From NCBI GenBank assembly GCA_021796115.1, contig JAJYOP010000007.1, positions 10,329 through 74,328 on the forward strand: DNA of 64,000 nucleotides, written 5' to 3'. A program made the position numbers and the translations under genes. This DNA is from a bacterium (lineage in GTDB: Bacteria; Omnitrophota; Gorgyraeia; Duberdicusellales; 4484-171). The notes beneath the pieces were generated by a model. The model searched no databases and was not told the origin of the DNA. It worked only from the letters and a program-made list of their open reading frames with translations. Below, in pieces: positions 1-64,000 of this stretch (positions are counted from its first letter, which is position 1; each line of letters starts with the position of its first letter).

Positions 1-994
1 AAAAATAGATGCTGCGAATCTTCCCGTTGCAAAGCTTGGCGATTCCGATAACCTGAAAATTGGCAAATGGGTAGTCGCCATAGGAAACCCTTTTGGCTTT
101 GCCATCGAAAACCCCGAGCCGACAGTTACGGTAGGCGTAATAAGCGCCCTTCACCGTTACATTCCTGCCTTGGGGAGAAGAGAGAGAAGCTATGATGAGC
201 TTATCCAAACCGATGCAGCGATAAATCCCGGAAATTCCGGCGGCCCCTTGGTTAACCTTGACGGCGAAGTTATCGGAATAAATACCGCGATAATTTCTGT
301 TTCCGGAGGTTACCAGGGTTTAGGTTTTGCTATACCCATCAATAAAGTAAAAAGAGTGCTTGATAAATTAATGAAGGGCGAAAAAGTTACTTATGGCTGG
401 CTGGGCATAAACATCCAGGATTTAAATGAGGATTTAAGAAGTTATTTCGGCATAAAAGAAGCAACCGGTATAATTGTCGTAAAGGTCTATAGCGGTTCAC
501 CCGCAGAGAAAGCCGGCATAAAAGAAGGGGATCTTATTCTGGCATTTGATAATCAGCCGGTCAAAGCGTCAAGAGACCTAATCCGCATGGTTGCTTCCTA
601 TGAAGTCGGCGCTGAAGTGCCGATAAAAATCGTACGCGACAAGAAAGAAATTAATCTCAAGGTAAAAATCGGCGAAGGTCCGAAAGATTTAAGTAAATTA
701 GAAGAGTCACAAGCCCAAAAAAAGCGCACGACTTTTAGAGGTATTGCGGTAGATGATATCACGCCTGTGCTTAAGCAAAGATTCAGATTAAAAGAAGACG
801 AAGGCGTAATTGTAACTTACATCGAAGATAATTCTCTTGCTGACAAGAGCACTTTAAGCGTTGGAGATGTAATCAGTAAGGTAAACGGCAAAGAAGTTAA
901 AAACAAAGAACAATTTATTTACGAAATCTCGAAAATAAAAGGAAGCTGGCTTTTAAAAACCAACAGGGGTTTCGTTGTCATTAAAGAAAAATGA
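1..994 (+). CDS. htrA: HtrA/DegP-family periplasmic serine protease, 5'-truncated by the window edge; the reading frame starts at nt 2. Trypsin-like domain plus two PDZ domains.
   Basis: The frame is open from nt 2 ([33 protein letters not shown]...). GNSGGPL catalytic-serine motif; PDZ-like regions ([20 protein letters not shown]). Confidence 0.85.
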
Positions 995-1120
995 CGAATT
1001 CCTAATGACAAATGGCTAATTAATGCCGAATTCTCAAATGTCTAAATAAATGTTTAGGCCTTAGGCATTTAAACATTAATTAGGCATTCGGAATTTGTCA
1101 TTAGTCATTCAAGAAAAGAA

Positions 1121-1597: not shown

Positions 1598-4237
1598 ATG
1601 AAATCCAACGAGTTACGCAAAAAATATTTAAAATTTTTCGCGAAGAAAAATCACAAGATTTTTCCTTCAGACAGCCTTATCCCTGACGATCCAAGCGTGC
1701 TTTTTACGCCGGCAGGGATGAATCAATTTAAATCCTACTTTTTGGGCGAAAAGACCGATGTTAAGCGGGTAACATCTTCCCAGAAATGCCTGCGCGCCGG
1801 CGACCTTGATGAAGTCGGCCGCACGCCGTACCATCACACTTTTTTTGAAATGCTCGGGAATTTTTCTTTCGGCGATTATTTTAAACGGGAAGCCATCCAA
1901 TTTGCCTGGGAATTCCTGTCTTGCGAATTAAACATGAAGGAAAAGGATATTTGGATTTCCGTTTACAAGGATGATAATGAAGCGTATACGATATGGAAAA
2001 ATGAAATTGGCATACCGGCACAAAAAATAGTAAAACTTGGCGAAGATAAAAATTTCTGGCCGGCAAACGCACCGACAAACGGCCCCGATGGCCCTTGCGG
2101 TCCATGCTCAGAAATATTTTTTGACCGAGGCTCTAGCGTTGGCTGCGGTAAGTCTACCTGTAGCCCAGCCTGCGGCTGCCCGCGTTTTGTTGAATTCTGG
2201 AACCTGGTTTTTACCCAGTTTAACCGCCAGGGTGTAAATAATTTAAAACCATTGCCGCAGAAAAATATCGATACTGGCATGGGCCTTGAGAGAATGGCTG
2301 CGATATTACAGGGTAAAGTTTCGAATTTTGAAATCGACATCCTTGAACCGGCAGTTACCTTTGTTGTAAAATTTCTTAAAGCAGATATCAGTAACCCCAG
2401 AGATAAAAGTTTCGTTAATGCCATAGTTGACCACGCAAGAGCTGCAACTTTTGCAATTTGTGACGGCGTTTATCCTTCAAATGAAGATCGAGGCTATGTT
2501 ATCAGGAAAATTATCAGAAAAGCTTTGTACCATGCGCATATTTTAGCCAAGAAAGAAGCGTTTTTATATAGAATGGTGGAATTATATGCCGAACTCATGC
2601 AGGAACCATACCCTGAAATCGGCTCAAAGAAAAACGTAATTGCCAAAGTCATACGCACAGAAGAAGATAAATTCATTTCTAGTTTAAAAGATGCTGAATC
2701 GCAATTTTTCCTGATTGCCAAAAATCTGGAAAAAAATAAGAGCGATACGGTTCTAGCAGGGGATGTATTTAAATTGTATGACACTTATGGCCTTCCGCTT
2801 GAGCTGACCAAAGAAATGGCAGCAAGATCTTTGCTTAAAATTGATGAAAACGGGTTCAAAAAACTTCTTAGCATTCAGCAAGAGCGTTCAAGAAAAAGCA
2901 GTATGTTTGACGAAAATATATTTAAGGCAGAGGGTATAATTTTTAAAGAAACAACGGAATTTACAGGTTATGGCGAAAGCGAGATTAAAACGAAAATCCT
3001 GCATATGGTAAAGCTTGAGGCGGACAATGTTTCAAAGAGCGCCGAAGTAAAAGAGTTAGACACCGGCGAAGAGGGGGTAATTGTTTTAGATAAAACATGT
3101 TTTTATCCGGAAGGTGGCGGCCAATTAACCGATAAAGGGAAGATTTCTACGAAAGACGGAGAATTTTTAGTCGATAAAGTTTTTCGCAGCGCGCACGCTA
3201 TCCTTCATAAAGGGAAAGTTACCAGAGGAAAAATTTCTAAAACCACAGTTCACGGTTCGATAGATTTACAAAGGCGCCAGGCATTGAAAAGAGCGCACAC
3301 AGCTACGCATCTGCTTCAGGCTGCCCTGCGCAAAGTCCTCGGCGAGCATGTTATGCAGCAAGGCTCATTAGTTGATGAAGACCGTCTTCGTTTTGACTTT
3401 ACTCATTTTAAGGCGCTTGCTGAAGAGGAATTAAAACGCGTGGAAGATATTGTTAACGGGTTTGTGCTTGATTCAGACAAGATAATTAAGGAAGAACTTT
3501 CTTACAAAGAGGCAAAATCCCGCGGTGCGCTTGCATTTTTTAAGGATAAATATAAAGATACCGTCCGCGTAGTTTCTATAGGAAGTTACAGCAAAGAGCT
3601 CTGTGGCGGCACACACCTTGATTTGACTTCCGAGGCAGGTACGTTCATGATAGTTAGCGAGTCGTCAATTGCCAGCGGCATAAGAAGAATTGAGGCAATA
3701 ACCGGAAAAAAGGCTTACGAAAAAATTAAGGAATATAAAAATATTCTTTTGAATTTATCTGAAAAGGTAAAATGTCCTGTCGAAGAACTCATAAATTACT
3801 TTGAAAAACAGGAAAAAGATTTAAAAGATGCCAGAGCGGCTCTTTCTCTTAACGAAAAGCAAAACATCTCAGCTAAACTTAAAGAGGCATTGCAATCCAA
3901 AAAAGAAATCAACGGGATAGACTATCTGGCTTATGAATTGAAAAATACCAGCGGAACAGGGCTCATCGAAGCTTCGGATATATTAAGAAAAGAAATTCCG
4001 GAATTATTCATTCTGCTTATTTCTGAGGCTAACGGGAGAAATGTCTTTGTCTGTTCGGTAACCAAGGCCCTCCTTGAGAAGGATATCAGTGCCGCAAAAT
4101 TCGTTTCCTCGTATAAAGACGAATTACAACTTCGGGGCGGTGGCAAAGACGCGCTTGTTCAGGGAGTCATAACTAACAGGCTAGAGGATTTTTTAGTAAA
4201 AGCGGAAAACTGTATCGTTAAATTTTTGACAAAATAA
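1598..4237 (+). CDS. alaS: Alanine--tRNA ligase
   Basis: 879 aa; N-terminal class II core (LFTPAGMNQFK, FEMLGNFSFGDYFK), editing-domain HxxxH/CxxxH region (HTATHLLQAALRKVLG...CGGTHL), C-terminal DHHA1-like part. Confidence 0.95.
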   Translation: MKSNELRKKYLKFFAKKNHKIFPSDSLIPDDPSVLFTPAGMNQFKSYFLGEKTDVKRVTSSQKCLRAGDLDEVGRTPYHHTFFEMLGNFSFGDYFKREAIQFAWEFLSCELNMKEKDIWISVYKDDNEAYTIWKNEIGIPAQKIVKLGEDKNFWPANAPTNGPDGPCGPCSEIFFDRGSSVGCGKSTCSPACGCPRFVEFWNLVFTQFNRQGVNNLKPLPQKNIDTGMGLERMAAILQGKVSNFEIDILEPAVTFVVKFLKADISNPRDKSFVNAIVDHARAATFAICDGVYPSNEDRGYVIRKIIRKALYHAHILAKKEAFLYRMVELYAELMQEPYPEIGSKKNVIAKVIRTEEDKFISSLKDAESQFFLIAKNLEKNKSDTVLAGDVFKLYDTYGLPLELTKEMAARSLLKIDENGFKKLLSIQQERSRKSSMFDENIFKAEGIIFKETTEFTGYGESEIKTKILHMVKLEADNVSKSAEVKELDTGEEGVIVLDKTCFYPEGGGQLTDKGKISTKDGEFLVDKVFRSAHAILHKGKVTRGKISKTTVHGSIDLQRRQALKRAHTATHLLQAALRKVLGEHVMQQGSLVDEDRLRFDFTHFKALAEEELKRVEDIVNGFVLDSDKIIKEELSYKEAKSRGALAFFKDKYKDTVRVVSIGSYSKELCGGTHLDLTSEAGTFMIVSESSIASGIRRIEAITGKKAYEKIKEYKNILLNLSEKVKCPVEELINYFEKQEKDLKDARAALSLNEKQNISAKLKEALQSKKEINGIDYLAYELKNTSGTGLIEASDILRKEIPELFILLISEANGRNVFVCSVTKALLEKDISAAKFVSSYKDELQLRGGGKDALVQGVITNRLEDFLVKAENCIVKFLTK

Positions 4238-4338
4238 AGATGTTATCGCGGATGCAAACGAATGGTTACGGATGTCACGGATTAATCCGTTGAATCCGCT
4301 ATAATCCGTATGAATCCGTGTTATAAAAAAATAAAGCT
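4238..4338. promoter_or_regulatory. hisD upstream region with phased CGGAT / ATCCG repeat array
   Basis: cGGATgcaaacg..aCGGATgtcaCGGATtaATCCGttgaATCCGctataATCCGtatgaATCCGtg; about 10-bp spacing, three direct then four inverted copies. Confidence 0.4.
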
Positions 4339-5562
4339 ATGAGAGTAGTAAGAAACATCGAAAGCCTGGAAAAAGCCTTGCTTAAAAAACGTAATTGCAA
4401 GGGTAATATTACCGAGAAGGTATCCAAAATAATTAAAGATATCGAAACGCGCGGGGATGACGCGCTTTTAGAATACACAAAGAAGTTCGACAAGGTAAAA
4501 TTACAGGCAAAAGAGTTAAGAGTGAGCGAATCAGAAATCAGCGCCGCATTCAATGAGCTCGATTCCTCAATAATATCGTCATTTAAACTCGCGATAGATA
4601 ATGTAACCAAATTCTATAAAAAAGAAGCGCCGCAATACATTAAGCGCATTAAAGAAAGTAACGGGAAGGTTTTGATAAACCGTTATGTGCCGCTTGAAAG
4701 AGTAGGGGTATATGTTCCGGCAGGAACCGCGCCGCTTATTTCAACCGTTTACATGGCGGTGATACCGGCTTTAGTTGCGGGAGTAAAAGAAATAGTCTTA
4801 GTTTCGCCGTTACGGAAAGATAAAACCGTAAACCCATTCATACTTTCTGTGGCTTCACTTTTAAAAATAAAAGAAATTTACCGCATTGGAGGAGCTCAGG
4901 CTATAGCCGCGCTATCCTTTGGTACAAAAACCATAAAGCGCGTAGATAAAATAATCGGTCCGGGCAACGAATTTGTTACCGAAGCTAAACGCCAGCTTTT
5001 CGGCAAAGTTGATATTGATATGCTTGCCGGGCCGTCAGAAGTCGTAATTATTGCTTCAAGAGGAGCAAACGTTGACTATATCGCTGCAGATTTAGAAGCC
5101 CAGATAGAACACCATAAAGGCATGGGGGTTGTTGTTACTAATTCAAAGAAAATCGCTAAAGAATTAAGTAAAAAGAAAATAAAAGGTTTTGTCGTAAGGG
5201 TAAAATATCTTGAAGAGGCCTGTGAGGTGGCGAATAGAATCGCGCCGGAACATCTTGAAATTTTTACTAAAAAGCCATCAGGTATTTTAAGGAAGATTAG
5301 AAATGCCGGGGCAATATTCCTGGGAGAAAATACGCCAACAGCGCTGGGTGATTATACTGCAGGGCCCAGCCATATTCTTCCTACAGGAGGAAGTTCGAGA
5401 TTCTTTTCGTCGCTTTCAACGAAAGAATTCCTTAAAGAAATACATATAATCAGTTATACAAAAAAAGCTCTTCAGGAAGAAGCGCAGGTTTTAGAAAAGA
5501 TCGCCTCGCTTGAAGGTATGACAAAACACATCGAAAGCGTTAAGAAAAGATTGATAAGCTGA
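4339..5562 (+). CDS. hisD: Histidinol dehydrogenase
   Basis: 407 aa; conserved HisD blocks ([50 protein letters not shown]). Confidence 0.9.
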
Positions 5563-6794: not shown

Positions 6795-6857
6795 ATTATA
6801 ATTCAAATCATCTGTGAACATCTCGCGATTTTTATCTGTGTTAATCTGTGGAAAAAT

Positions 6858-8182: not shown

Positions 8183-8200
8183 CATAATAATTATGTAACC

Positions 8201-9633
8201 CCAAAGTGATAATGTCCCTTTTGGGCAAAGTAAAAATGTCCCCTTTTACAATTGCTATAATATCTCTCGAAGGAGGGTATTATGGCAAAGAGAGGCATTA
8301 TCACAATGAAGCAGGAGGAACTAAAACGGCTCTACATCGTCCGTCAGGTACTGGATAAAAAGCTAAAACAGGTAGAAGCAGCGGATAAGCTTGCTTTGAG
8401 CTACCGTCAGACTAAACGAATAACTAAAAGAATAAAAGAAGAAGGCGATAAGGGAATAGTTCATAAATCAAGAGGTAAGCCCTCCCATAACCGTATAGCT
8501 CTTAAGATAAAGAATAAAGTAATCAATCTCTGCAGAGATAAATATAAAGGCTTTGGCCCTACCCTAGCTACAGAAAAGCTCTTTGAAATCGAAAAGATAA
8601 GGCTTAGCGATGAAACTCTTCGGAACTGGCTCACCCAGGAAGGCCTTTGGCAGCGCAAGCGCAAACATAAAGAATACCGCGCCTGGCGCGAACGCAAGCA
8701 CCGTTTCGGAGAAATGATTCAGTGGGACGGCTCGCATCATGCCTGGCTTGAAGATAGAGGCCCCTGGTGCGTGTTGATCAGCCAGATTGACGATGCTACC
8801 AATAAGAAATCCGGACAGTTCTATCCTTACGAAGGAACTTTGCCTGCCTTCTCAAGCCTTAAACAATACATAAGACGCTACGGCATACCCCATAGCATCT
8901 ATTTAGACAGGCACACAACGTATAAATCAAACAAGAAGCTCTCAATTAAAGACGAACTGAATGACAGAGAATTCTTAAGCCGGTTCGAAAGAGCCGCCAA
9001 GGAATTAGGCATAACCATAATCCATGCCAATTCTGCTCCGGCTAAAGGAAGAATCGAGCGCTCTTTTAAAACCGACCAGGATCGCCTGGTCAAGGAAATG
9101 CGCCTTGCGAATATAGCTACCATTGAAGAAGCCAATAAGTTCCTAAAGAAATACTGGCCTAAACATAACAAAAGATTCAGCGTAAAATCCATAGAAGAAG
9201 GCAACCTGCACAGGCCGATACCCGAGGGCACAGACTTAGACGCTATCCTTTGCAAAAAGACCGAGCATGTTTTAAGAAACGATTTTACTGTCGGCCATAA
9301 CAAGAAGTTCTATCAGATACTGGATAAGGCGATAGGCAAAAGCGTAACCGTCGAAGAAAGAATAAATGGCGCCCTTTATATTACTTACAACGGCAGGAAG
9401 CTTAAATACAAACAGGTAAAGGCCAGGCCAAAACAGAATAAACCAAAGCTTAAACTAAAGAACAGAGTTAAACCGTCCATGGAACACCCCTGGAGGAAAC
9501 CTTACGGTAAAAAGACGACAGCTTACGGAAAAGCGCTCTATCAAAATAAAAGCTATACCGAGGAATTAGTATTATCAGAGGTCTAAAAAGAGGCCATTTT
9601 AACTTTGGTAAAAAAGGGACATTTTAACTTTGG
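8201..9633. mobile_element. Insertion sequence (~1.43 kb) with ~22-bp terminal inverted repeats carrying a single transposase gene
   Basis: IRL ccaaagtgataatgtccctttt (8201-8222) vs rc of 9612-9633 ccaaagttaaaatgtccctttt (about 20/22 identical); additional subterminal ATGTCCC/GGGACAT copies at 8236-8243 and 9661-9668; single DDE transposase ORF inside. No clear target-site duplication seen. Confidence 0.6.
8282..9586 (+). CDS. IS481/ISNCY-family DDE transposase (N-terminal HTH + rve integrase core)
   Basis: 434 aa; HTH-like N-terminus, MIQWDGSHHAWLEDRGPWCVLISQIDDATNK..., YLDRHTTYKS ..., IHANSAPAKGRIERSFKT (D, D, E catalytic region of rve fold); flanked by inverted repeats. Confidence 0.8.
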   Translation: MAKRGIITMKQEELKRLYIVRQVLDKKLKQVEAADKLALSYRQTKRITKRIKEEGDKGIVHKSRGKPSHNRIALKIKNKVINLCRDKYKGFGPTLATEKLFEIEKIRLSDETLRNWLTQEGLWQRKRKHKEYRAWRERKHRFGEMIQWDGSHHAWLEDRGPWCVLISQIDDATNKKSGQFYPYEGTLPAFSSLKQYIRRYGIPHSIYLDRHTTYKSNKKLSIKDELNDREFLSRFERAAKELGITIIHANSAPAKGRIERSFKTDQDRLVKEMRLANIATIEEANKFLKKYWPKHNKRFSVKSIEEGNLHRPIPEGTDLDAILCKKTEHVLRNDFTVGHNKKFYQILDKAIGKSVTVEERINGALYITYNGRKLKYKQVKARPKQNKPKLKLKNRVKPSMEHPWRKPYGKKTTAYGKALYQNKSYTEELVLSEV

Positions 9634-9641
9634 CTTGACAA

Positions 9642-9766
9642 CTCGCATTATAGTTGTTGACATGTCCCAAAATAAGCGTAATATAAAAATACTTTGATAA
9701 AAGAAGATTAGCATTCTTGAGCCGTAAGGTTGGGAGGAACTAACCTTACGGTTTTTTTGTTTATAT
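9642..9766 (+). promoter_or_regulatory. Sigma70-like promoter (TTGACA-16-TAATAT) followed by a hairpin+U-tract, in the leader of cspA at the IS right flank
   Basis: ttgacatgtcccaaaataagcgtaatat; then ccgtaaggttgggaggaactaaccttacgg + ttttttt at about 9722-9766, within ~35 nt of the cspA SD. Confidence 0.4.
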
Positions 9767-9796
9767 GGGGCGTAAATCCATTAGGGGGGGGTAAAG

Positions 9797-10751: not shown

Positions 10752-10996
10752 TAAGGAAACAATAGGATATTAAAAACTGCAGTAACTAACCGTTTGATTA
10801 ATTTTCTTAAATATGGTTTTTTCAAATATAATGTCTATCTTAAAATGAATAGACACGCTTATCTGTTAGCAATCCAGAGAGTTAGGTGATTTATAGACAA
10901 AAAATAACGGACAAATTGGACAAATTTCGCGAGGAAATCACCTCTCTAAACCGCTAATTTCTTGATAATCACCACGTTTAGCCCTATAATACATAC

Positions 10997-11120
10997 CTGT
11001 AGACAAGGAGAGGTTTCCCTTCGTGGCATACGAGTGGGACCCCAGTCTTTCTCGTCTCCAAGTGAGAGGAGAGAAGGTTAAGGCCCTGGTTACTTAACGT
11101 GACCAGGGCCTTAATTTTTG
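10997..11120 (+). ncRNA. Candidate small RNA / small-ORF transcript, copy 1 of the ~50-nt intergenic family, with its own promoter and terminator
   Basis: TTGATA(10962-67)-17 nt-TATAAT(10985-90); conserved core ctgtagacaaggagagg...cccttcgtggcatacgagtgggacccc from 10997; GGAGAGG then 9 nt then GTG opens a 24-codon ORF (11023-11097, VAYEWDPSLSRLQVRGEKVKALVT); hairpin ggccctggt..accagggcc + ttaattttt (11082-11120). Confidence 0.4.
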
Positions 11121-11395
11121 TTGCGCCATATTTCGGAGTTTCGAAAAGAATAAAGAAAGCCTTCCAATCTTCTAAAAGCTGTTTGTAGAGAAGATATCCT
11201 CGTAGGTAATATTTCTGCTCGTCCAAGGAAAACCGTTACATCTATGCTAACAATCTATAGGTAATTAATAATATTTAACAATACGGGAACTTTTTTTATT
11301 TTGGATTGTCTAATATAAAAGAACCAAGAAACAAAATATAAAGGGCTCAAATTATATTAAAAAGGAGGCAAAATGAAAACATCAAGGTACTTATC

Positions 11396-15198: not shown

Positions 15199-15521
15199 TA
15201 GTTTTAAGCAAATCATAATCATGAAAAATGTACCAGTTAATTTCCATTATTTTTATCAAGTGGCGAATAAAATACTATTGTATTCTTTGCTATTTGTTTT
15301 TAGCTTTTTTGTTATTTCTTTAATTTCTTCACGCCAGAATAGGTTTTCTTGACTATATTAAAGAAGCGCTGATTATTAATTAATAGCTGACTATTAATAG
15401 ATTGCTATGTTACCCTCTAGCCTTTAATGCCAGCATCAAGAGTGCCTCTTTATTGTACCATATCTCTGTTATTCGAAATGGATAAAGAAAGCCATTCTAA
15501 CTTTCAAAGAGCTGTAAACGG

Positions 15522-16284: not shown

Positions 16285-16516
16285 TATCGCCATATATTAT
16301 CGTTCATCCATTCGATAATGTATAAAACATACTTCTGTTGTCCACTTAGAATAGGTAGACAATTTGTATATGTTTATATAGTGAAGCCCCACGAACTAAA
16401 GTCCGTGGCTTCCTCCTGAGCAGAAATCCCAAAAAGGCATTTATCCCTCGGGTCATCCCATCTGGGATAGCCCGCGAGGAATGAATATAATTCCTGCTTC
16501 ATAAGGAGCAAATACG

Positions 16517-40441: not shown

Positions 40442-40556
40442 TAAATCACTGCCTGCCGGCAGGTCGCAAAGCCGCAAACGTAAAGATGCAAAATATGCAA
40501 AGAAATTTTTGCGCTTTTGCGATTAGTATTTTTGCGCTACTTTGTGTTTTGCGGCA
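40442..40556. repeat. Long imperfect palindrome of phased GCAAA / TTTGCG repeats between RND and arsR
   Basis: cctgccggcagg palindrome then gcaaagccgcaaacgtaaagatgcaaaatatgcaaag | aaa | tttttgcgcttttgcgattagtatttttgcgctactttgtgttttgcgg. Confidence 0.4.
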
Positions 40557-46452: not shown

Positions 46453-46602
46453 GCTTTCTTTCTAACAATAACCTTGCCGCAGGATGTAAAAACTAATAAA
46501 ATGAGCGCGGAATATAAAAATGGTGTTTTGAAAATCAGCATGCCGAGAATTGAAACTAACAAAAAAGGCGCGGGGGCTGGCATAAAAATTCCTGTAAAAT
46601 AA
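46453..46602 (+). pseudogene. Possible Hsp20/alpha-crystallin C-terminal remnant
   Basis: Open frame AFFLTITLPQDVKTNKMSAEYKNGVLKISMPRIETNKK...: contains two Hsp20 C-terminal-like motifs (LTITLP, YKNGVLKISMPR) but no alpha-crystallin core upstream. Confidence 0.25.
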
Positions 46603-46625: not shown

Positions 46626-46829
46626 CTGAACATTCCCCGGAATTTAAGGGTATCTTGGCATAACTCTATGTAAAACAAGCGATAACGAAGATAAAAATCT
46701 ATGATTCTTCAGGGGGCGGAGGCAAACGGATTTTAGCGGATGCAGACGGATAAAAAACCTATAATTATCCGTATGCATCCACAATCATCCGTGACATCCG
46801 TCCTTAAAAATAAAAAAATGGGGAAGCTC
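46626..46829 (+). repeat. 204-bp dispersed repeat, copy A
   Basis: ctgaacattccccggaatttaagggtatcttggcataactctatg...ggatgcagacggataaaaaacctataattatccgtatgcatcc...aaaaatggggaagctc; about 98% identical to copies at 52532 and 63656. Confidence 0.85.
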
Positions 46830-46907
46830 CAGACCTCATTTTTTCCTTTAAAAATCTAAACTATGTGGTAATATACATAATTTAGGTTTTATCATTCTTG
46901 GATTATT

Positions 46908-48196: not shown

Positions 48197-48970
48197 ATGA
48201 TAAAAAAAATATCCCAAAATATTTCTAAACTACAAAATACTTTATTATTTATTTGCGCTACTTTGTTGCTGGGTATCATTATAACACTTGGATGGATTAA
48301 CCATTTTGATTTTGAACGCTCCGTCGTAAATGCGGAGTTGCGGGAGCTTTTAATTATTGCTAAGTCAGCCGGCCACGATATTGAAAACGGAATTATTGGC
48401 ATTAAACAAGAACCGGCTTATATAGATAAACTTATACAGCATATAAATAACGAGGAAAAGTTTGCGACTTTTGTTATGAACAATAAACACATTGTTTTAA
48501 GCAGCCCGATTAAAAGGCAGGTGGGCAAGAATATCATTGAAATTGGGAGAGAAATATTAAATAATAAAGAAATGCACAAATTAAGCAGGTTTGTGCAAAA
48601 ACTGGATTCGAACGACTCCGGAACAGCAATTTTACTTTTTCCTGCAAAAAGCGAAAGTTCAAAGAAAGAAATGAAGTTGTTTGCTTTCACTCATTTGAAA
48701 GGAAAAACCGGAATCTATTCTATTGTTGTGACAGAAAGGTTAAGCGCTCTCACGGGCCCGTTACGCAGAAATTTAAGAGATATATTAGTGCTGGTAGGGT
48801 TATTTTTCCTTATATCTTTAATCTTCATCTATATTTTTTATCATGGCCATCAGAAAAGGATAAAAATGGAAATCAGCGCCAAAGCCTTAGAGATAATCAA
48901 TAGAGAATTGCATTGTACAATTGATGACTATAAGTGTATTGAGAAGAAACTTAACGATTATAAAAAATAG
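48197..48970 (+). CDS. Two-TM membrane protein with periplasmic sensor-like domain and very short cytoplasmic tail (possible truncated sensor)
   Basis: TM1 aa 15-35, ~155-aa extracytoplasmic segment, TM2 ILVLVGLFFLISLIFIYIFY, 40-aa tail; no kinase/MCP domain. Confidence 0.45.
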   Translation: MIKKISQNISKLQNTLLFICATLLLGIIITLGWINHFDFERSVVNAELRELLIIAKSAGHDIENGIIGIKQEPAYIDKLIQHINNEEKFATFVMNNKHIVLSSPIKRQVGKNIIEIGREILNNKEMHKLSRFVQKLDSNDSGTAILLFPAKSESSKKEMKLFAFTHLKGKTGIYSIVVTERLSALTGPLRRNLRDILVLVGLFFLISLIFIYIFYHGHQKRIKMEISAKALEIINRELHCTIDDYKCIEKKLNDYKK

Positions 48971-49041
48971 ATGTTATCGGAAACTGCAAGCAGATATTAG
49001 GCCATTTTTGAATCTCTAAATAACTTCCCGGCGAATGCCTC

Positions 49042-49160
49042 CTTGCCAAATTTAGCCCTACCCTACATACCTGTAAAACGGGAAAGCTTTCTCCTTGTGA
49101 TATATGAGTGGGATCCATATTTTTGCCTTTGGCAAAAATATGGAACAATTGCGCAATAGA
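49042..49160 (+). ncRNA. Copy 2 of the ~50-nt intergenic family, with internal perfect hairpin
   Basis: cctgtaaaacgggaaagctttctccttgtgatatatgagtgggatcc; 20-codon GTG ORF 49096-49158 (VIYEWDPYFCLWQKYGTIAQ); hairpin ccatatttttgcc tttggcaaaaatatgg 49114-49142. Confidence 0.3.
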
Positions 49161-49574
49161 TAATAAAAGATATGGCAAAGCTCAATCGCGGTCTATTCTT
49201 TATTGCTCGATTGTTCAAACTGCCCTTAGGCGGGTTCAGTTAAAAAAAGACGGTATGGTTTTTTTATTAAAAATAGAACCATACCCTTGATTGTTAAATA
49301 ATAATTAAACATTGCGTTTCCAGATTTGTAATTCCAAATTAATTCTCTGGCTGAAAACTATAAGTTATGTTAATATCACAAATATAAAAAGGAAAAGTAC
49401 TGTATTTATACCGGTTGGCATTCTTATTCCGCCTTTGAAATATAAAACCTTGGTTATGGTAAAATTGGCGTTTGTTTTAGCCTATAACAGCCAGAAAAAT
49501 CAAATTCATAGTTAATTCTTTCTGCTTTGCGTGTTACTCTATCGAAAAGAACTGATTATTATAAGGTAATTAAA

Positions 49575-52531: not shown

Positions 52532-52735
52532 CTGAACATTCCCCGGAATTTAAGGGTATCTTTGCATAACTCTATGTAAAACAAGCGATAACGAAGATAA
52601 AAATCTATGATTCTTCAGGGGGCGGAGGCAAACGGATTTTAGCGGATGCAGACGGATAAAAAACCTATAATTATCCGTATACATCCACAATCATCCGTGA
52701 CATCCGTCATTAAAAATAAAAAAATGGGGAAGCTC
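52532..52735 (+). repeat. 204-bp dispersed repeat, copy B
   Basis: Near-identical to 46626-46829; runs in frame into the malic enzyme ORF (no stop). Confidence 0.85.
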
Positions 52736-52828
52736 CAATCACAAATTTTCTTGAAAATTACCACAGTTAGTCCTATAATAACCTCCTTATACGCCTGGAG
52801 ATTTTGTCAAATATTAAAAGGAAGTGCA

Positions 52829-59836: not shown

Positions 59837-59862
59837 TTGCGCTAATGCGGTATTTAATCTTA

Positions 59863-59955
59863 GGTTACGGAAGTTACGAAAGTTATATAGGCTACGAAGG
59901 TTGCACTAAATCGCAAAGTTTTAAATGTAACTTTCGTAGTTTGCCGTAACCTGGG
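59863..59955. promoter_or_regulatory. Long interrupted inverted repeat (8+11 bp arms) in radical SAM / DsbD-like intergenic region
   Basis: GGTTACGGaagtTACGAAAGTTA ...40 nt... TAACTTTCGTAgtttgCCGTAACC, followed by GTAACC tandem repeats. Confidence 0.4.
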
Positions 59956-59981
59956 TAACCTTTGTAACCTCATAATAAATT

Positions 59982-63655: not shown

Positions 63656-63859
63656 CTGAACATTCCCCAGAATTTAAGGGTATCTTGGCATAACTCTATG
63701 TAAAACAAGCGATAACGAAGATAAAAATCTATGATTCTTCAGGGGGCGGAGGCAAACGGATTTTAGCGGATGCAGACGGATAAAAAACCTATAATTATCC
63801 GTATACATCCACAATCATCCGTGACATCCGTCCTTAAAAATAAAAAAATGGGGAAGCTC
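63656..63859 (+). repeat. 204-bp dispersed repeat, copy C
   Basis: Near-identical to 46626-46829 and 52532-52735. Confidence 0.85.
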
Positions 63860-64000
63860 AAGTTTTAATTTTCTGTTAGCTAAAATTCAAAATGAGACTT
63901 TTTAAAATTGAAAAGTAGACAATCCTAGCTCATGCTTTTTGATTCTTTGTACATCGATGAGTTTATTGTTACCCCAGAACCTTAATTCTATGAGTGTGTT

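What the first reader, a model, noticed from the sequence alone, without database searches (positions are those of the whole stretch)
4238..4338. Long palindromes built from short motifs phased at about 10 bp (CGGAT/ATCCG and GCAAA/TTTGCG arrays)
Upstream of hisD, and independently inside every 204-bp repeat copy, three CGGAT motifs are followed by four ATCCG motifs at about one helical turn spacing. Together they form an imperfect palindrome of 80 nt or more. A separate array at 40455-40556, between the RND pump and arsR, has the same architecture with GCAAA x4 then TTTGCG x4. One-turn phasing of inverted half-sites points to cooperative binding by an oligomeric DNA-binding protein, to cruciform DNA, or to long RNA hairpins acting as attenuators.
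Basis: seen in the sequence. Interest (0 to 1): 0.55.

Follow-up and report, generated by a model that had tools for sequence, protein, structure and literature searches.

The report
Dispersed decamer-repeat foldback elements between genes
The CGGAT/ATCCG "palindromes" are copies of a short non-coding repeat that has been dropped between genes (and inside a small mobile element) in this Omnitrophota genome. It is not a histidine-operon switch, but its three-unit core (CAC-G/A-GAT every 10 bp) recurs in Bacteroides, a cyanobacterial plasmid, soil metagenomes and many uncultivated phages, and appears undescribed.

Summary
The arrays are real: 5 in the window against 0 in 100 simulations. The description needs correcting. 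The "204-bp repeat" is a 207-bp dispersed MITE with terminal inverted repeats and 7-11 bp flanking direct repeats, in 3 copies. Each copy carries 3 CGGAT, then 3 ATCCG plus 1 ATCCA. The GCAAA array is not 10-bp phased.

The hisD array is an insertion. The closest relatives (95% and 88% HisD identity) have alaS abutting hisD with no array. Another relative has the homologous array, and a third has a CACGAAT version.

The same architecture (short motif xN, loop, reverse-complement xN) fills many intergenic gaps in Omnitrophota, with many motifs and periods, mostly heptamers. This rules out a gene-specific operator or attenuator.

The CGGAT arrays belong, in degenerate form, to a decamer family: ttttAACCACRGAT-kAACACRGAT-kAACACRGAT. 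I found it in 109 viral stretches, at least 120 metagenome stretches, Bacteroides finegoldii (3 foldbacks in 53 kb), a Gloeothece plasmid and gut phage records. There was no Rfam or literature match.

Best reading: a REP/STRR/MITE-like dispersed repeat, co-transcribed as an imperfect hairpin. Its conserved core implies an unknown trans-acting factor. The mechanism of spread and the function are inferred, not shown.

The parts
4244..4323 (.). Foldback array in the alaS-hisD spacer. Left arm: GCGGAT, ACGAAT, ACGGAT, ACGGAT. A 2-bp centre. Right arm: ATCCGT, ATCCGC, ATCCGT, ATCCGT. It is a degenerate member of the CACRGAT decamer family.
   Evidence: Homologous through the spacers to L006 9895-9983. 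Absent in L003, L004, L005 and L008. Profile hit on the right arm 4300-4322(-) is only E~1.
4240..4246 (+). ATGTTAT: left copy of a possible target-site duplication (TGTTAT). The right copy is at 4321-4326. The empty site in L003 reads TGTTAC once.
   Evidence: Suggestive only.
6810..6851 (-). One-armed decamer array between hisB and hisH. On the minus strand it reads TTCCACAGAT-TAACACAGAT-(14-bp degenerate unit)-GTTCACAGAT. This is the best match in the window to the cross-phylum CACRGAT module.
   Evidence: nhmmer E=0.009. Conserved at the same junction in L004, L006 and L007, with the motif conserved and the spacers variable.
46626..46832 (+). 207-bp MITE copy 1. TIR is CTGAACATTCCCC / rc CTGGAGCTTCCCC, flanked by an 11/11 direct repeat ACCTCATTTTT. 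The internal CGGAT/ATCCG foldback lies at about 46715-46802.
52532..52738 (+). 207-bp MITE copy 2 (reference copy), flanked by (C/T)CACAAATT (8/9). The internal foldback lies at about 52621-52708.
   Evidence: ENA contig L083 is bounded by copies 1 and 2, i.e. an assembly break at a repeat.
63656..63862 (+). 207-bp MITE copy 3, flanked by TTTTAAT(C/T) (7/8). The internal foldback lies at about 63745-63832.
40464..40556 (.). GCAAA x4 / TTTGCG x4 foldback between the RND pump and arsR. It belongs to the general short-tandem-repeat foldback class (a CCGCAAA family is also seen in L011), not to the decamer family. Spacing is irregular, 8-17 bp.
40449..40463 (.). GC-rich mini-palindrome CTGCCTGCCGGCAGG abutting the GCAAA array. 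The same 11-mer is nested inside the arrays of L006 and L012.
990..1109 (.). Foldback of AATGNC / GNCATT repeats (57-nt arms, 70% complementary) between htrA and recX. Same class, different motif.
59852..59980 (.). Foldback of GTTACGRAA x4 / (N)GTAAC x4 with a 9-bp period, pairing in several registers. Same class, different motif.

Best explanation
The CGGAT/ATCCG palindromes are copies of a dispersed, non-coding intergenic repeat. They are not a dedicated regulatory site.

The basic module is three (sometimes four) 10-bp units with core CAC(G/A)GAT, consensus ttttAACCACRGAT-kAACACRGAT-kAACACRGAT-taaa. Two modules placed head to head make the 'long palindrome'.

In this Omnitrophota genome the module sits in three settings:
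(i) as a foldback inserted between alaS and hisD;
(ii) as a single arm between hisB and hisH;
(iii) as a foldback inside a 207-bp MITE, which then transposed to at least three sites and carried the array along.

Shown: the arrays are gained and lost between close relatives. They occupy gaps between unrelated co-directional genes. They coexist with many other short-tandem-repeat foldbacks (heptamers above all), of which the GCAAA array is one.

Inferred: because every gene in the window is co-directional, the foldbacks are transcribed within operon mRNAs and fold into imperfect hairpins. Any effect, such as protecting the upstream 3' end or bridging stop and start codons, is secondary and dispensable.

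Inferred: the strict register and the conserved core across phyla and phages mean that some trans-acting factor, still unidentified, recognises the decamers and propagates or exploits them.
For: Insertion polymorphism at alaS-hisD.
- L003 (95% HisD identity) has a 30-bp spacer with no array.
- L004, L005 and L008 have the alaS stop overlapping the hisD ATG.
- L006 has the homologous CGGAT array with a nested mini-palindrome.
- L007 is 99% identical to the array-less L004 in HisD, yet carries a CACGAAT array.

Recurrent colonisation of hisB-hisH.
- The basal spacer is 3-20 bp.
- In different lineages it is filled by unrelated foldbacks: AGACC, AAGCT and GTAAGT heptamers, ATCTGTG decamers, AATGCGG.
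- L027 has one foldback in every gap of lepB-pgsA-plsY-recA-htrA, including two pairs of homologous copies.

Period census.
- 35 exact triple heptamers in 1.05 Mb of Omnitrophota loci, against 0 in 0.19 Mb of Firmicutes loci.

The 207-bp element.
- It has imperfect TIRs and different 7-11 bp flanking direct repeats at each of its 3 copies.

The cross-phylum family.
- 109 viral stretches (I estimate about 5 expected by chance, assuming a collection size I did not measure) with a sharp consensus and exactly 3 units.
- B. finegoldii: 3 foldbacks in 53 kb.
- A Gloeothece plasmid and gut phage records.
- A profile built from the outside arrays picks the window's hisB-hisH array as the top hit (E=0.009) and its orthologues next.
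- The viral carriers are unrelated to one another.
Against: - No transposase, recombinase or other partner was identified.
- Foldbacks outside the window show no target-site duplication. The TGTTAT duplication at hisD is a single case.
- Most viral arrays are single arms, which cannot be classical two-ended transposons.
- The hisD and MITE arrays are degenerate (ACGGAT, rarely CACGGAT) and score only E~1 against the family profile. Their family membership therefore rests on motif, period, architecture and the presence of better members nearby.
- The hisB-hisH array has persisted in four genomes with the motif better conserved than the spacers. That hints at function rather than junk.
- Growth in situ by slippage and template switching cannot be excluded for the non-decamer arrays.
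Confidence: 0.6

Rival explanations
1. Operator arrays. An oligomeric DNA-binding protein, for example a winged-helix regulator that reads 7+3-bp direct repeats on one face of the helix, binds the phased CGGAT sites cooperatively and controls hisD and the genes downstream of each repeat copy.
For: - The 10-bp register is strictly kept. There are exactly three units in 92 of 94 viral arrays. The motif is conserved while spacers vary.
- Single arms are common, so the hairpin is not the conserved feature.
- From my own knowledge of the families: OmpR/PhoB-type and CtsR-type sites have this heptad+3 or 10-11-bp tandem layout.
Against: - The array is absent from the orthologous hisD upstream region in the closest relatives.
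- There is no common gene class downstream.
- Density is about one per 10-20 kb in hosts and phages alike.
- Loop length between arms is unconstrained and not helically periodic.
- Other arrays in the same genomes have 7-, 8- and 9-bp periods and unrelated motifs.
- No promoter-like site was found at hisD.
Confidence: 0.15
2. RNA-level element. The transcribed arrays act in the mRNA. Foldbacks would act as long hairpins (3'-end protection, processing site, stop-start bridging). Single arms would act as a single-stranded platform for an RNA-binding protein. The unit ACACGGAUGA fits the CsrA/RsmE consensus (A/U)CANGGANG(U/A) as I recall it.
For: - Hairpins fold better than shuffles.
- In the viral set the arrays lie in tight gaps between co-directional genes, mostly in sense.
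- In that set, 26 of 55 long upstream ORFs end on the array's own TAA/TGA, and about 10 downstream ORFs start on its ATG.
- One array-bearing viral locus encodes a CsrA-like protein (L155; 39% identity to B. subtilis CsrA, E=5e-6).
- STRR hairpins in cyanobacteria have been proposed to stabilise transcripts or couple translation (PMC2670836).
Against: - Plus- and minus-strand folding energies show no consistent asymmetry.
- Sense bias and stop-codon use do not replicate in the metagenome set.
- The window's best family member (hisB-hisH) is antisense to the genes.
- The CACAGAT and CACGAAT variants lack the GGA that CsrA needs. In foldbacks the GGA would be buried in the stem.
- No U-tract follows the hairpins.
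- Arm-to-arm identity at variable positions is only 0.76, against 0.66 for random pairs.
Confidence: 0.2
3. Generated in place. Short tandem repeats arise by replication slippage in intergenic DNA. Intrastrand template switching then makes them palindromic (quasi-palindrome correction). No mobility and no factor is involved; the arrays are mutational by-products tolerated only between genes.
For: - Units within an array resemble each other more than units of other arrays (R position: GGG 52 and AAA 35 of 134, against about 24 and 11 expected).
- Perfect young heptamer runs exist (L059 TAAGCTG x3).
- Arms pair in several registers.
- The same junction carries arrays of different length with the same motif (L014, L016, L011).
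- L006 and L007 arrays share their borders but differ in motif.
Against: - This cannot explain the same 30-bp consensus, including the outer AACC and the flanking T and A runs, in genomes of 38-71% GC, in unrelated phages, in Bacteroides and in a cyanobacterial plasmid.
- It cannot explain homologous copies at different loci of one genome (L027; window hisD versus the MITE).
- It cannot explain the near-fixed count of three units.
Confidence: 0.15

Closest known systems
Cyanobacterial STRR (short tandemly repeated repetitive) sequences, including the hupS-hupL and hoxW-upstream hairpins
   Same: Both are short tandem repeats confined to intergenic DNA. Both are often present in both orientations, so the transcript can form a hairpin. 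Both come in many sequence families per genome, and their function is unknown (PMC2670836; Vioque 1997, cited in PMC2858038). Omnitrophota loci are likewise rich in heptamer runs.
   Different: STRRs are heptamers described in filamentous cyanobacteria. The CGGAT/CACRGAT family has a 10-bp unit, a near-fixed count of three units, conserved outer flanks, and a distribution across phyla and phages.
REP/BIME elements and REPINs of Proteobacteria
   Same: Both are extragenic, imperfectly palindromic, multi-copy, sit between co-transcribed or convergent genes, and vary in presence between strains. Inverted pairs form hairpins (REPIN paper PMC3116915, listed; otherwise my own knowledge).
   Different: REPs are single 20-40-nt palindromes, not arrays of phased sub-repeats. 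They are tied to a RAYT transposase and are lineage-specific. No RAYT was seen here, and the decamer module is absent from 5,426 E. coli genomes.
MITEs (miniature inverted-repeat transposable elements)
   Same: The 207-bp element has TIRs, flanking direct repeats that differ at each copy, no coding capacity and near-identical copies. Insertion into operons without disruption is known for MITEs (my own knowledge).
   Different: The array is an internal passenger of the MITE, not its ends. The solo arrays lack TIRs other than the arrays themselves, and mostly lack target duplications.
Foldback (FB) transposons of eukaryotes
   Same: Both have long inverted arms built from short tandem sub-repeats, with a variable loop and pairing possible in many registers (my own knowledge).
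   Different: FB elements are a eukaryotic, kilobase-scale, transposase-associated family. This is an analogy of architecture only.
Dispersed phage intergenic motifs (mycobacteriophage stoperators; Cluster K start-associated sequences)
   Same: Both are many copies of one short asymmetric motif in tight intergenic gaps of a phage genome, mostly in one orientation relative to transcription (the comparison is from my own knowledge).
   Different: Those motifs are specific to one phage cluster and are single 13-17-bp sites bound by the phage repressor. The decamer triplets occur in unrelated phages and in host chromosomes.

Membership tests
MITE (for the 207-bp repeat) | Terminal inverted repeats | tested here: met
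   CTGAACATTCCCC versus rc CTGGAGCTTCCCC, 9/13, at the limits of inter-copy conservation.
MITE (for the 207-bp repeat) | Target-site duplications that differ between copies | tested here: met
   ACCTCATTTTT (11/11), (C/T)CACAAATT (8/9) and TTTTAAT(C/T) (7/8) directly abut the three copies. The length is not uniform.
MITE (for the 207-bp repeat) | Small, non-coding, multi-copy, near-identical | tested here: met
   207 bp, 3 copies at 98.5-100% identity. The only ORFs are 39-46 aa and are chance ORFs. A short-read assembly breaks at the copies.
MITE (for the 207-bp repeat) | A cognate autonomous element with the same ends | not tested
   No transposase with these TIRs is in the window. An exact 25-mer from the element's array core was absent from the genome and metagenome collections.
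MITE / mobile element (for the solo hisD foldback) | Presence/absence polymorphism with target duplication | tested here: inconclusive
   Presence/absence is clear. TGTTAT flanks the array and occurs once (as TGTTAC) at the empty L003 site. This is one case, and foldbacks in other genomes show no duplication.
STRR | Tandem heptanucleotide unit | tested here: not met
   The unit is 9-10 bp for CGGAT and 8-17 bp for GCAAA. Heptamer arrays do occur in related genomes.
STRR | Intergenic location, inverted arrangement able to form hairpins | tested here: met
REP/REPIN | Association with a RAYT (Y1 transposase) gene flanked by the repeats | tested here: not met
   Of the 30 window ORFs scanned against Pfam (not all of the roughly 60 genes), none is a Y1 transposase. 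The only gene-flanking inverted pair of arrays (L090) encloses phage packaging-region ORFs.
Transcription-factor operator of a regulon | Conserved upstream of orthologous target genes | tested here: not met
   Absent upstream of hisD in L003, L004, L005, L008 and all more distant relatives.
Transcription-factor operator of a regulon | Precedes a coherent gene class | tested here: not met
   The arrays precede hisD, hisH, tauE, malic enzyme and arsR. In relatives they sit by lepB, pgsA, plsY, recA and htrA; in Bacteroides by rluA and downstream of aspD.
Intrinsic terminator / attenuator | GC-rich stem followed by a U-tract; alternative structures coupled to a leader | tested here: not met
   No terminator-like site was found. 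An A-run follows the hairpin and a T-run precedes it. There is no leader ORF, and there is no Rfam family hit.
DnaA-box cluster | Units matching TTWTNCACA | tested here: not met
   By eye, only the outer hisB-hisH unit (TTTTCCACA) and one MITE unit (ACATCCACA) come close. The core ATCCGTG differs at the CACA positions.
CsrA/RsmA binding sites | GGA core in a CANGGANG context, single-stranded or in hairpin loops, in the sense transcript | tested here: inconclusive
   The consensus unit ACACGGATGA fits (the CsrA consensus is from memory). The CACAGAT and CACGAAT variants lack GGA, the foldbacks bury it, and the window's best array is antisense. Binding is not testable here.
CACRGAT decamer-triplet family (defined here) | At least 3 units of C[AG]C[GA]GAT at a 10-bp period, outer unit preceded by AAC/AGC and a T-run | tested here: met
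   Met by window 6810-6851(-) (nhmmer E=0.009). The hisD and MITE arrays meet period and orientation, but most units read RCGGAT without the leading CA (E~1), so they are degenerate members.

The most novel reading that the evidence does not exclude
The three-unit decamer module (ttttAACCACRGAT-kAACACRGAT-kAACACRGAT) is a conserved cis-element read by an as yet unknown, widely distributed DNA- or RNA-binding factor. That factor would be shared by Bacteroidota, Cyanobacteriota, Omnitrophota, soil bacteria and their phages. It would define a new class of cross-phylum intergenic 'punctuation', or a new kind of very small mobile DNA, that phages and hosts exchange.
Probability: 0.3. Interest if true: 0.8.

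Novelty: new variant of a known kind. Interest (0 to 1): 0.6.

Why it matters
For the window itself the result is deflationary. The palindromes are repeat-element copies, so they should not be annotated as his-operon regulators, and they explain why short-read assemblies of this genome break.

The wider result is more interesting. Omnitrophota intergenic DNA is colonised by STRR-like foldback repeats, previously described mainly in cyanobacteria. One family, with a 10-bp unit and a fixed three-unit module, is shared almost letter for letter with unrelated uncultivated phages, gut Bacteroides, a cyanobacterial plasmid and soil metagenomes.

A 30-bp sequence kept across 38-71% GC genomes calls for a conserved reader or mover. 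Because the element exists in cultivable, genetically tractable Bacteroides, that factor can be looked for directly.

Tried and rejected
- Known RNA families: none at gathering threshold in the window. Only sub-threshold miRNA-hairpin noise on outside foldbacks. No tRNA.
- Promoter or terminator at hisD: none.
- Exact 25-mer of the MITE array in the genome and metagenome collections: no hits.
- Sigma-54 promoter in the MITE (TGGCAT-N5-TATGT): lacks the GC of the -12 box (by eye).
- DnaA boxes: poor match at the CACA positions.
- Chi-like or uptake-sequence idea: CGGAT is not over-represented in the window.
- Transposon ends enclosing a transposase: the only 1.7-kb inverted pair (L090) encloses small phage ORFs next to a terminase-like gene.
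- One phage lineage as carrier: the largest shared protein family covers only 6 of 59 loci.
- 'Universal stop/restart adaptor' (TGA/TAA and ATG in all three frames at a 10-bp period): seen in the viral set. Not kept in TTT or GGA spacers, and not replicated in metagenomes.
- RNA-strand asymmetry of the hairpins: none consistent.
- Helical phasing between the two arms: none.
- CsrA: one viral homologue only.
- Cultured phages in GenBank and 5,426 E. coli genomes: no CACGGAT module.
- Literature string searches for the decamer arrays: nothing. 'Omnitroph' with 'palindrom': nothing relevant.
- The MITE terminus resembles the IS10 outside end as I remember it (CTGATGAATCCCC). I did not test this and make no claim from it.

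Full report
**Observation**

The sequence at 4238-4338 is the whole alaS-hisD spacer: the alaS stop is at 4237 and the hisD ATG at 4339.
- CGGAT lies at 4249, 4269 and 4278, with CGAAT at 4259.
- ATCCG lies at 4285, 4294, 4304 and 4314.
- Spacings are 9-10 bp.
- The repeat finder reports a 45-nt-arm palindrome, 73% complementary.

A blind scan looked for any non-trivial 5-mer present at least 3 times and followed by at least 3 reverse complements. It returns only the four CGGAT loci and the GCAAA locus. It returns nothing in 100 Markov simulations. CGGAT is not over-represented overall (109 observed, 103 expected).

- The "204-bp repeat" is a dispersed 207-bp element at 46626-46832, 52532-52738 and 63656-63862.
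- Its right arm reads ATCCG, ATCCA, ATCCG, ATCCG.
- The GCAAA/TTTGCG array has spacings of 8, 14, 9 | 8, 15, 17.
- The window holds further arrays of the same build: 990-1109, 59852-59980, and a one-armed array at 6810-6851.

**Whose genome**

HisD relatives in the species-representative genome collection are Candidatus Omnitrophota MAGs. The window's own hisD also lies on an ENA contig and a Logan contig. All genes in the window are on the plus strand, and GC is about 0.40.

**The hisD array is an insertion**

I compared the alaS-hisD junction across relatives, using a HisD identity matrix.

| Locus | HisD identity | State of the junction |
|---|---|---|
| L003 | 95% to window | 30-bp spacer, no array; contains TGTTAC once |
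| L004, L005, L008 | 87-88% to window | alaS stop overlaps the hisD ATG |
| L006 | 88% to window; 96% to L004 | CGGAT array homologous to the window's through the spacers, interrupted by a nested GC-rich mini-palindrome |
| L007 | 99% to the array-less L004 | array built from CCACGAAT/ATTCGTG |

In the window the array is flanked by TGTTAT on both sides.

Aligning L004 with L006 (84% nucleotide identity) shows further presence/absence events of the same kind. One is a 114-bp CGCGAAT foldback placed exactly between a stop codon and the next start codon.

**The 207-bp repeat is a MITE carrying the array**

Conservation among the three copies starts at CTGAACATTCCCC and ends at GGGGAAGCTCCAG. These are 9/13 inverted repeats. 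Each copy is flanked by its own direct repeat: ACCTCATTTTT 11/11, (C/T)CACAAATT 8/9, and TTTTAAT(C/T) 7/8. A 6-kb short-read contig of the same organism is bounded by two of the copies.

The MITE's array shares GCGGA[G/T]GCAAACG[G/A]AT with the hisD array. The four CGGAT loci are therefore one family, not independent inventions.

**The architecture is general in Omnitrophota and is not tied to genes**

The same scan on about 1 Mb of Omnitrophota loci finds foldbacks with many motifs:
- CACGAAT, CACGT, CCGCAAA, TTCCAAAT, TCGATAC, GTCACAC, TAAGCTG.
- None occurs in the Firmicutes loci that came in with the same search.

In L027 every gap of the lepB-lipoprotein-pgsA-plsY-recA-htrA cluster holds one. 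Two families are present twice.

A census of exact triple repeats gives 35 heptamer runs in 1.05 Mb of Omnitrophota, against 0 in 0.19 Mb of Firmicutes. Period 10 occurs only in the window.

The hisB-hisH junction is the clearest natural experiment. The basal spacer is 3-20 bp. In different lineages it is filled by AGACC, AAGCT or GTAAGT heptamer foldbacks, AATGCGG foldbacks, or ATCTGTG/ATCCGTG decamers. A regulon-type operator or a his attenuator cannot account for this.

The closest published parallel is the cyanobacterial STRR. These are heptamer repeats that form hairpins between hupS and hupL and upstream of hoxW, and their function is unknown (PMC2670836).

**The CGGAT arrays belong to a decamer family found far outside Omnitrophota**

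*Viral contigs.* The pattern RCGGATK-N3-RCGGATK-N3-RCGGAT gave 109 stretches. I estimate about 5 expected by chance; that estimate assumes a collection size I did not measure. The arrays there are sharply defined:
- consensus ttttAACCACGGAT-kAACACGGAT-kaACACGGAT-taaaa;
- exactly three units in 92 of 94;
- 12 of 94 followed by an inverted arm;
- locus GC 0.45-0.70.

Several contigs carry 4-6 arrays. The contigs are unrelated to each other: the largest shared protein family is found in 6 of 59 loci.

I estimate about 1 expected by chance, on the same assumption. GC is 0.38-0.71, and 30% of arrays are foldbacks. The G/A choice is concerted within arrays.

*Annotated collections.*
- Bacteroides finegoldii has a textbook foldback between rlmD and rluA: CACCACAGAT-TACACGGAT-TAACACGGAT, loop, ATCTGTG-TTAATCCGTG-TAATCTGTGGTG. 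It has two more foldbacks within 53 kb. The record is labelled a plasmid but carries atp and pyr genes.
- A Gloeothece PCC 7424 plasmid has one array.
- Uncultivated gut phage records carry the CACAGAT variant.
- The CACGGAT consensus is absent from cultured GenBank phages and from E. coli genomes.

*Link to the window.* A profile built only from outside arrays was searched against the window plus all hisD loci. Its best hit is the window's hisB-hisH array (E=0.009), followed by the L004 and L006 orthologues. Further CRCAGAT foldbacks in L004, L006, L007 and L069 also score. The hisD right arm scores only E~1.

I therefore file the hisB-hisH array as a clear member of the family, and the hisD and MITE arrays as degenerate members.

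No Rfam family matches. No paper in the library contains the decamer strings.

**How it works: what is shown and what is inferred**

Shown:
- gain and loss between close relatives;
- no link to gene class;
- hitch-hiking inside a MITE;
- motif conservation exceeding spacer conservation, both within arrays and between orthologous arrays;
- single arms as the common form;
- no helical constraint between arms (loops 0-124 bp);
- arm-to-arm identity only modestly above random pairs (0.76 against 0.66);
- no terminator features;
- no consistent strand asymmetry in folding.

Inferred:
- The arrays are co-transcribed and fold.
- Any effect on expression is secondary.
- A trans-acting factor recognises the decamers.

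In the viral set the arrays are mostly in sense and often supply the upstream stop codon or the downstream start codon. This is not reproduced in the metagenome set, so I do not build on it.

The unit ACACGGATGA fits the CsrA/RsmE consensus as I remember it, and one viral locus encodes a CsrA-like protein. However, the variants lacking GGA and the antisense copy in the window weaken this idea.

**Verdict**

The regulatory interpretation is not supported for hisD. The idea that the phased motifs are read by a factor remains open and is, if anything, strengthened by the outside data.

The finding is ordinary as a feature of this window: a repeat element. It is unusual as a family: a fixed three-unit decamer module shared across phyla and phages, apparently undescribed.

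Noticed in passing
window 8183-9796: A 434-aa protein (8282-9586) with N-terminal HTH_28/HTH_23/HTH_32 domains is inserted after hisA. It is flanked by inverted pairs of ~25-bp tandem repeats: CAAAGTnAnAATGTCCCnTTTT x2 on the left and the reverse complement x2 at 9587-9633. This is probably an IS element with two binding sites per end. The ENA short-read contig ends exactly here.
   Followed up: partly
window 40449-40463; L006 9918; L012 11938; L024 12279; L065 1383: The GC-rich mini-palindrome CTGCCTGCCGG(C/T)AGG recurs in Omnitrophota loci. It is nested inside the L006 hisD array and the L012 hisB-hisH array, and abuts the window's GCAAA array. It may be a second tiny element that lands in or next to the arrays.
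   Followed up: partly
window 46474-46602: A 42-aa ORF reads like the C-terminal end of a small heat-shock protein (…AEYKNGVLKISMPRIE…). It lies just upstream of MITE copy 1 and is probably a gene remnant left by a rearrangement.
   Followed up: no
window 10972-11042 vs 49046-49116; 11117-11176 vs 15449-15508: There are two further dispersed repeat pairs (75% and 73% identity) around small minus-strand ORFs with no Pfam hit (10984-11226 and 48951-49178). By eye, similar ACGGAGAGGA…CCTTCG/CCCTCG strings appear at about 40265 and 15535. This may be another repeated small gene or structured RNA.
   Followed up: no
L004 3468 (126 bp), 7194 (168 bp), 14998 (106 bp); L006 14342 (177 bp): GC-rich, structured-looking insertions sit exactly between a stop codon and the next gene, present in one of two close relatives only. 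These are other kinds of small intergenic insert in this clade.
   Followed up: no
L149, L154, L134, L174, L178, L088 (viral loci): CACGGAT triplets are often paired, 14-17 bp away, with a second decamer triplet of another motif (CACGAAG or CACGAAT). The spacer between them is AT-rich (for example GAAACTAATATATTTTA).
   Followed up: no
L155 2131-2298: A viral contig that carries a CACGGAT array encodes a CsrA-like protein (39% identity to B. subtilis CsrA over 57 aa).
   Followed up: partly
L011, L013, L016, L042, L045 (several positions): The same heptamer families (AGACCAG/AGACCAA, GTCTTTG, CACACGT) recur in different Omnitrophota genomes at different loci, much like the named STRR families of cyanobacteria.
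   Followed up: partly
window 16380-16500: The 232-bp gap before the 743-aa gene contains GC-rich hairpins (GAAGCCCCACGAACTAAAGTCCGTGGCTTCC; CCCTCGGG…CCCGCGAGG) in an otherwise AT-rich genome. There is no Rfam hit. This could be a leader or a small RNA.
   Followed up: no
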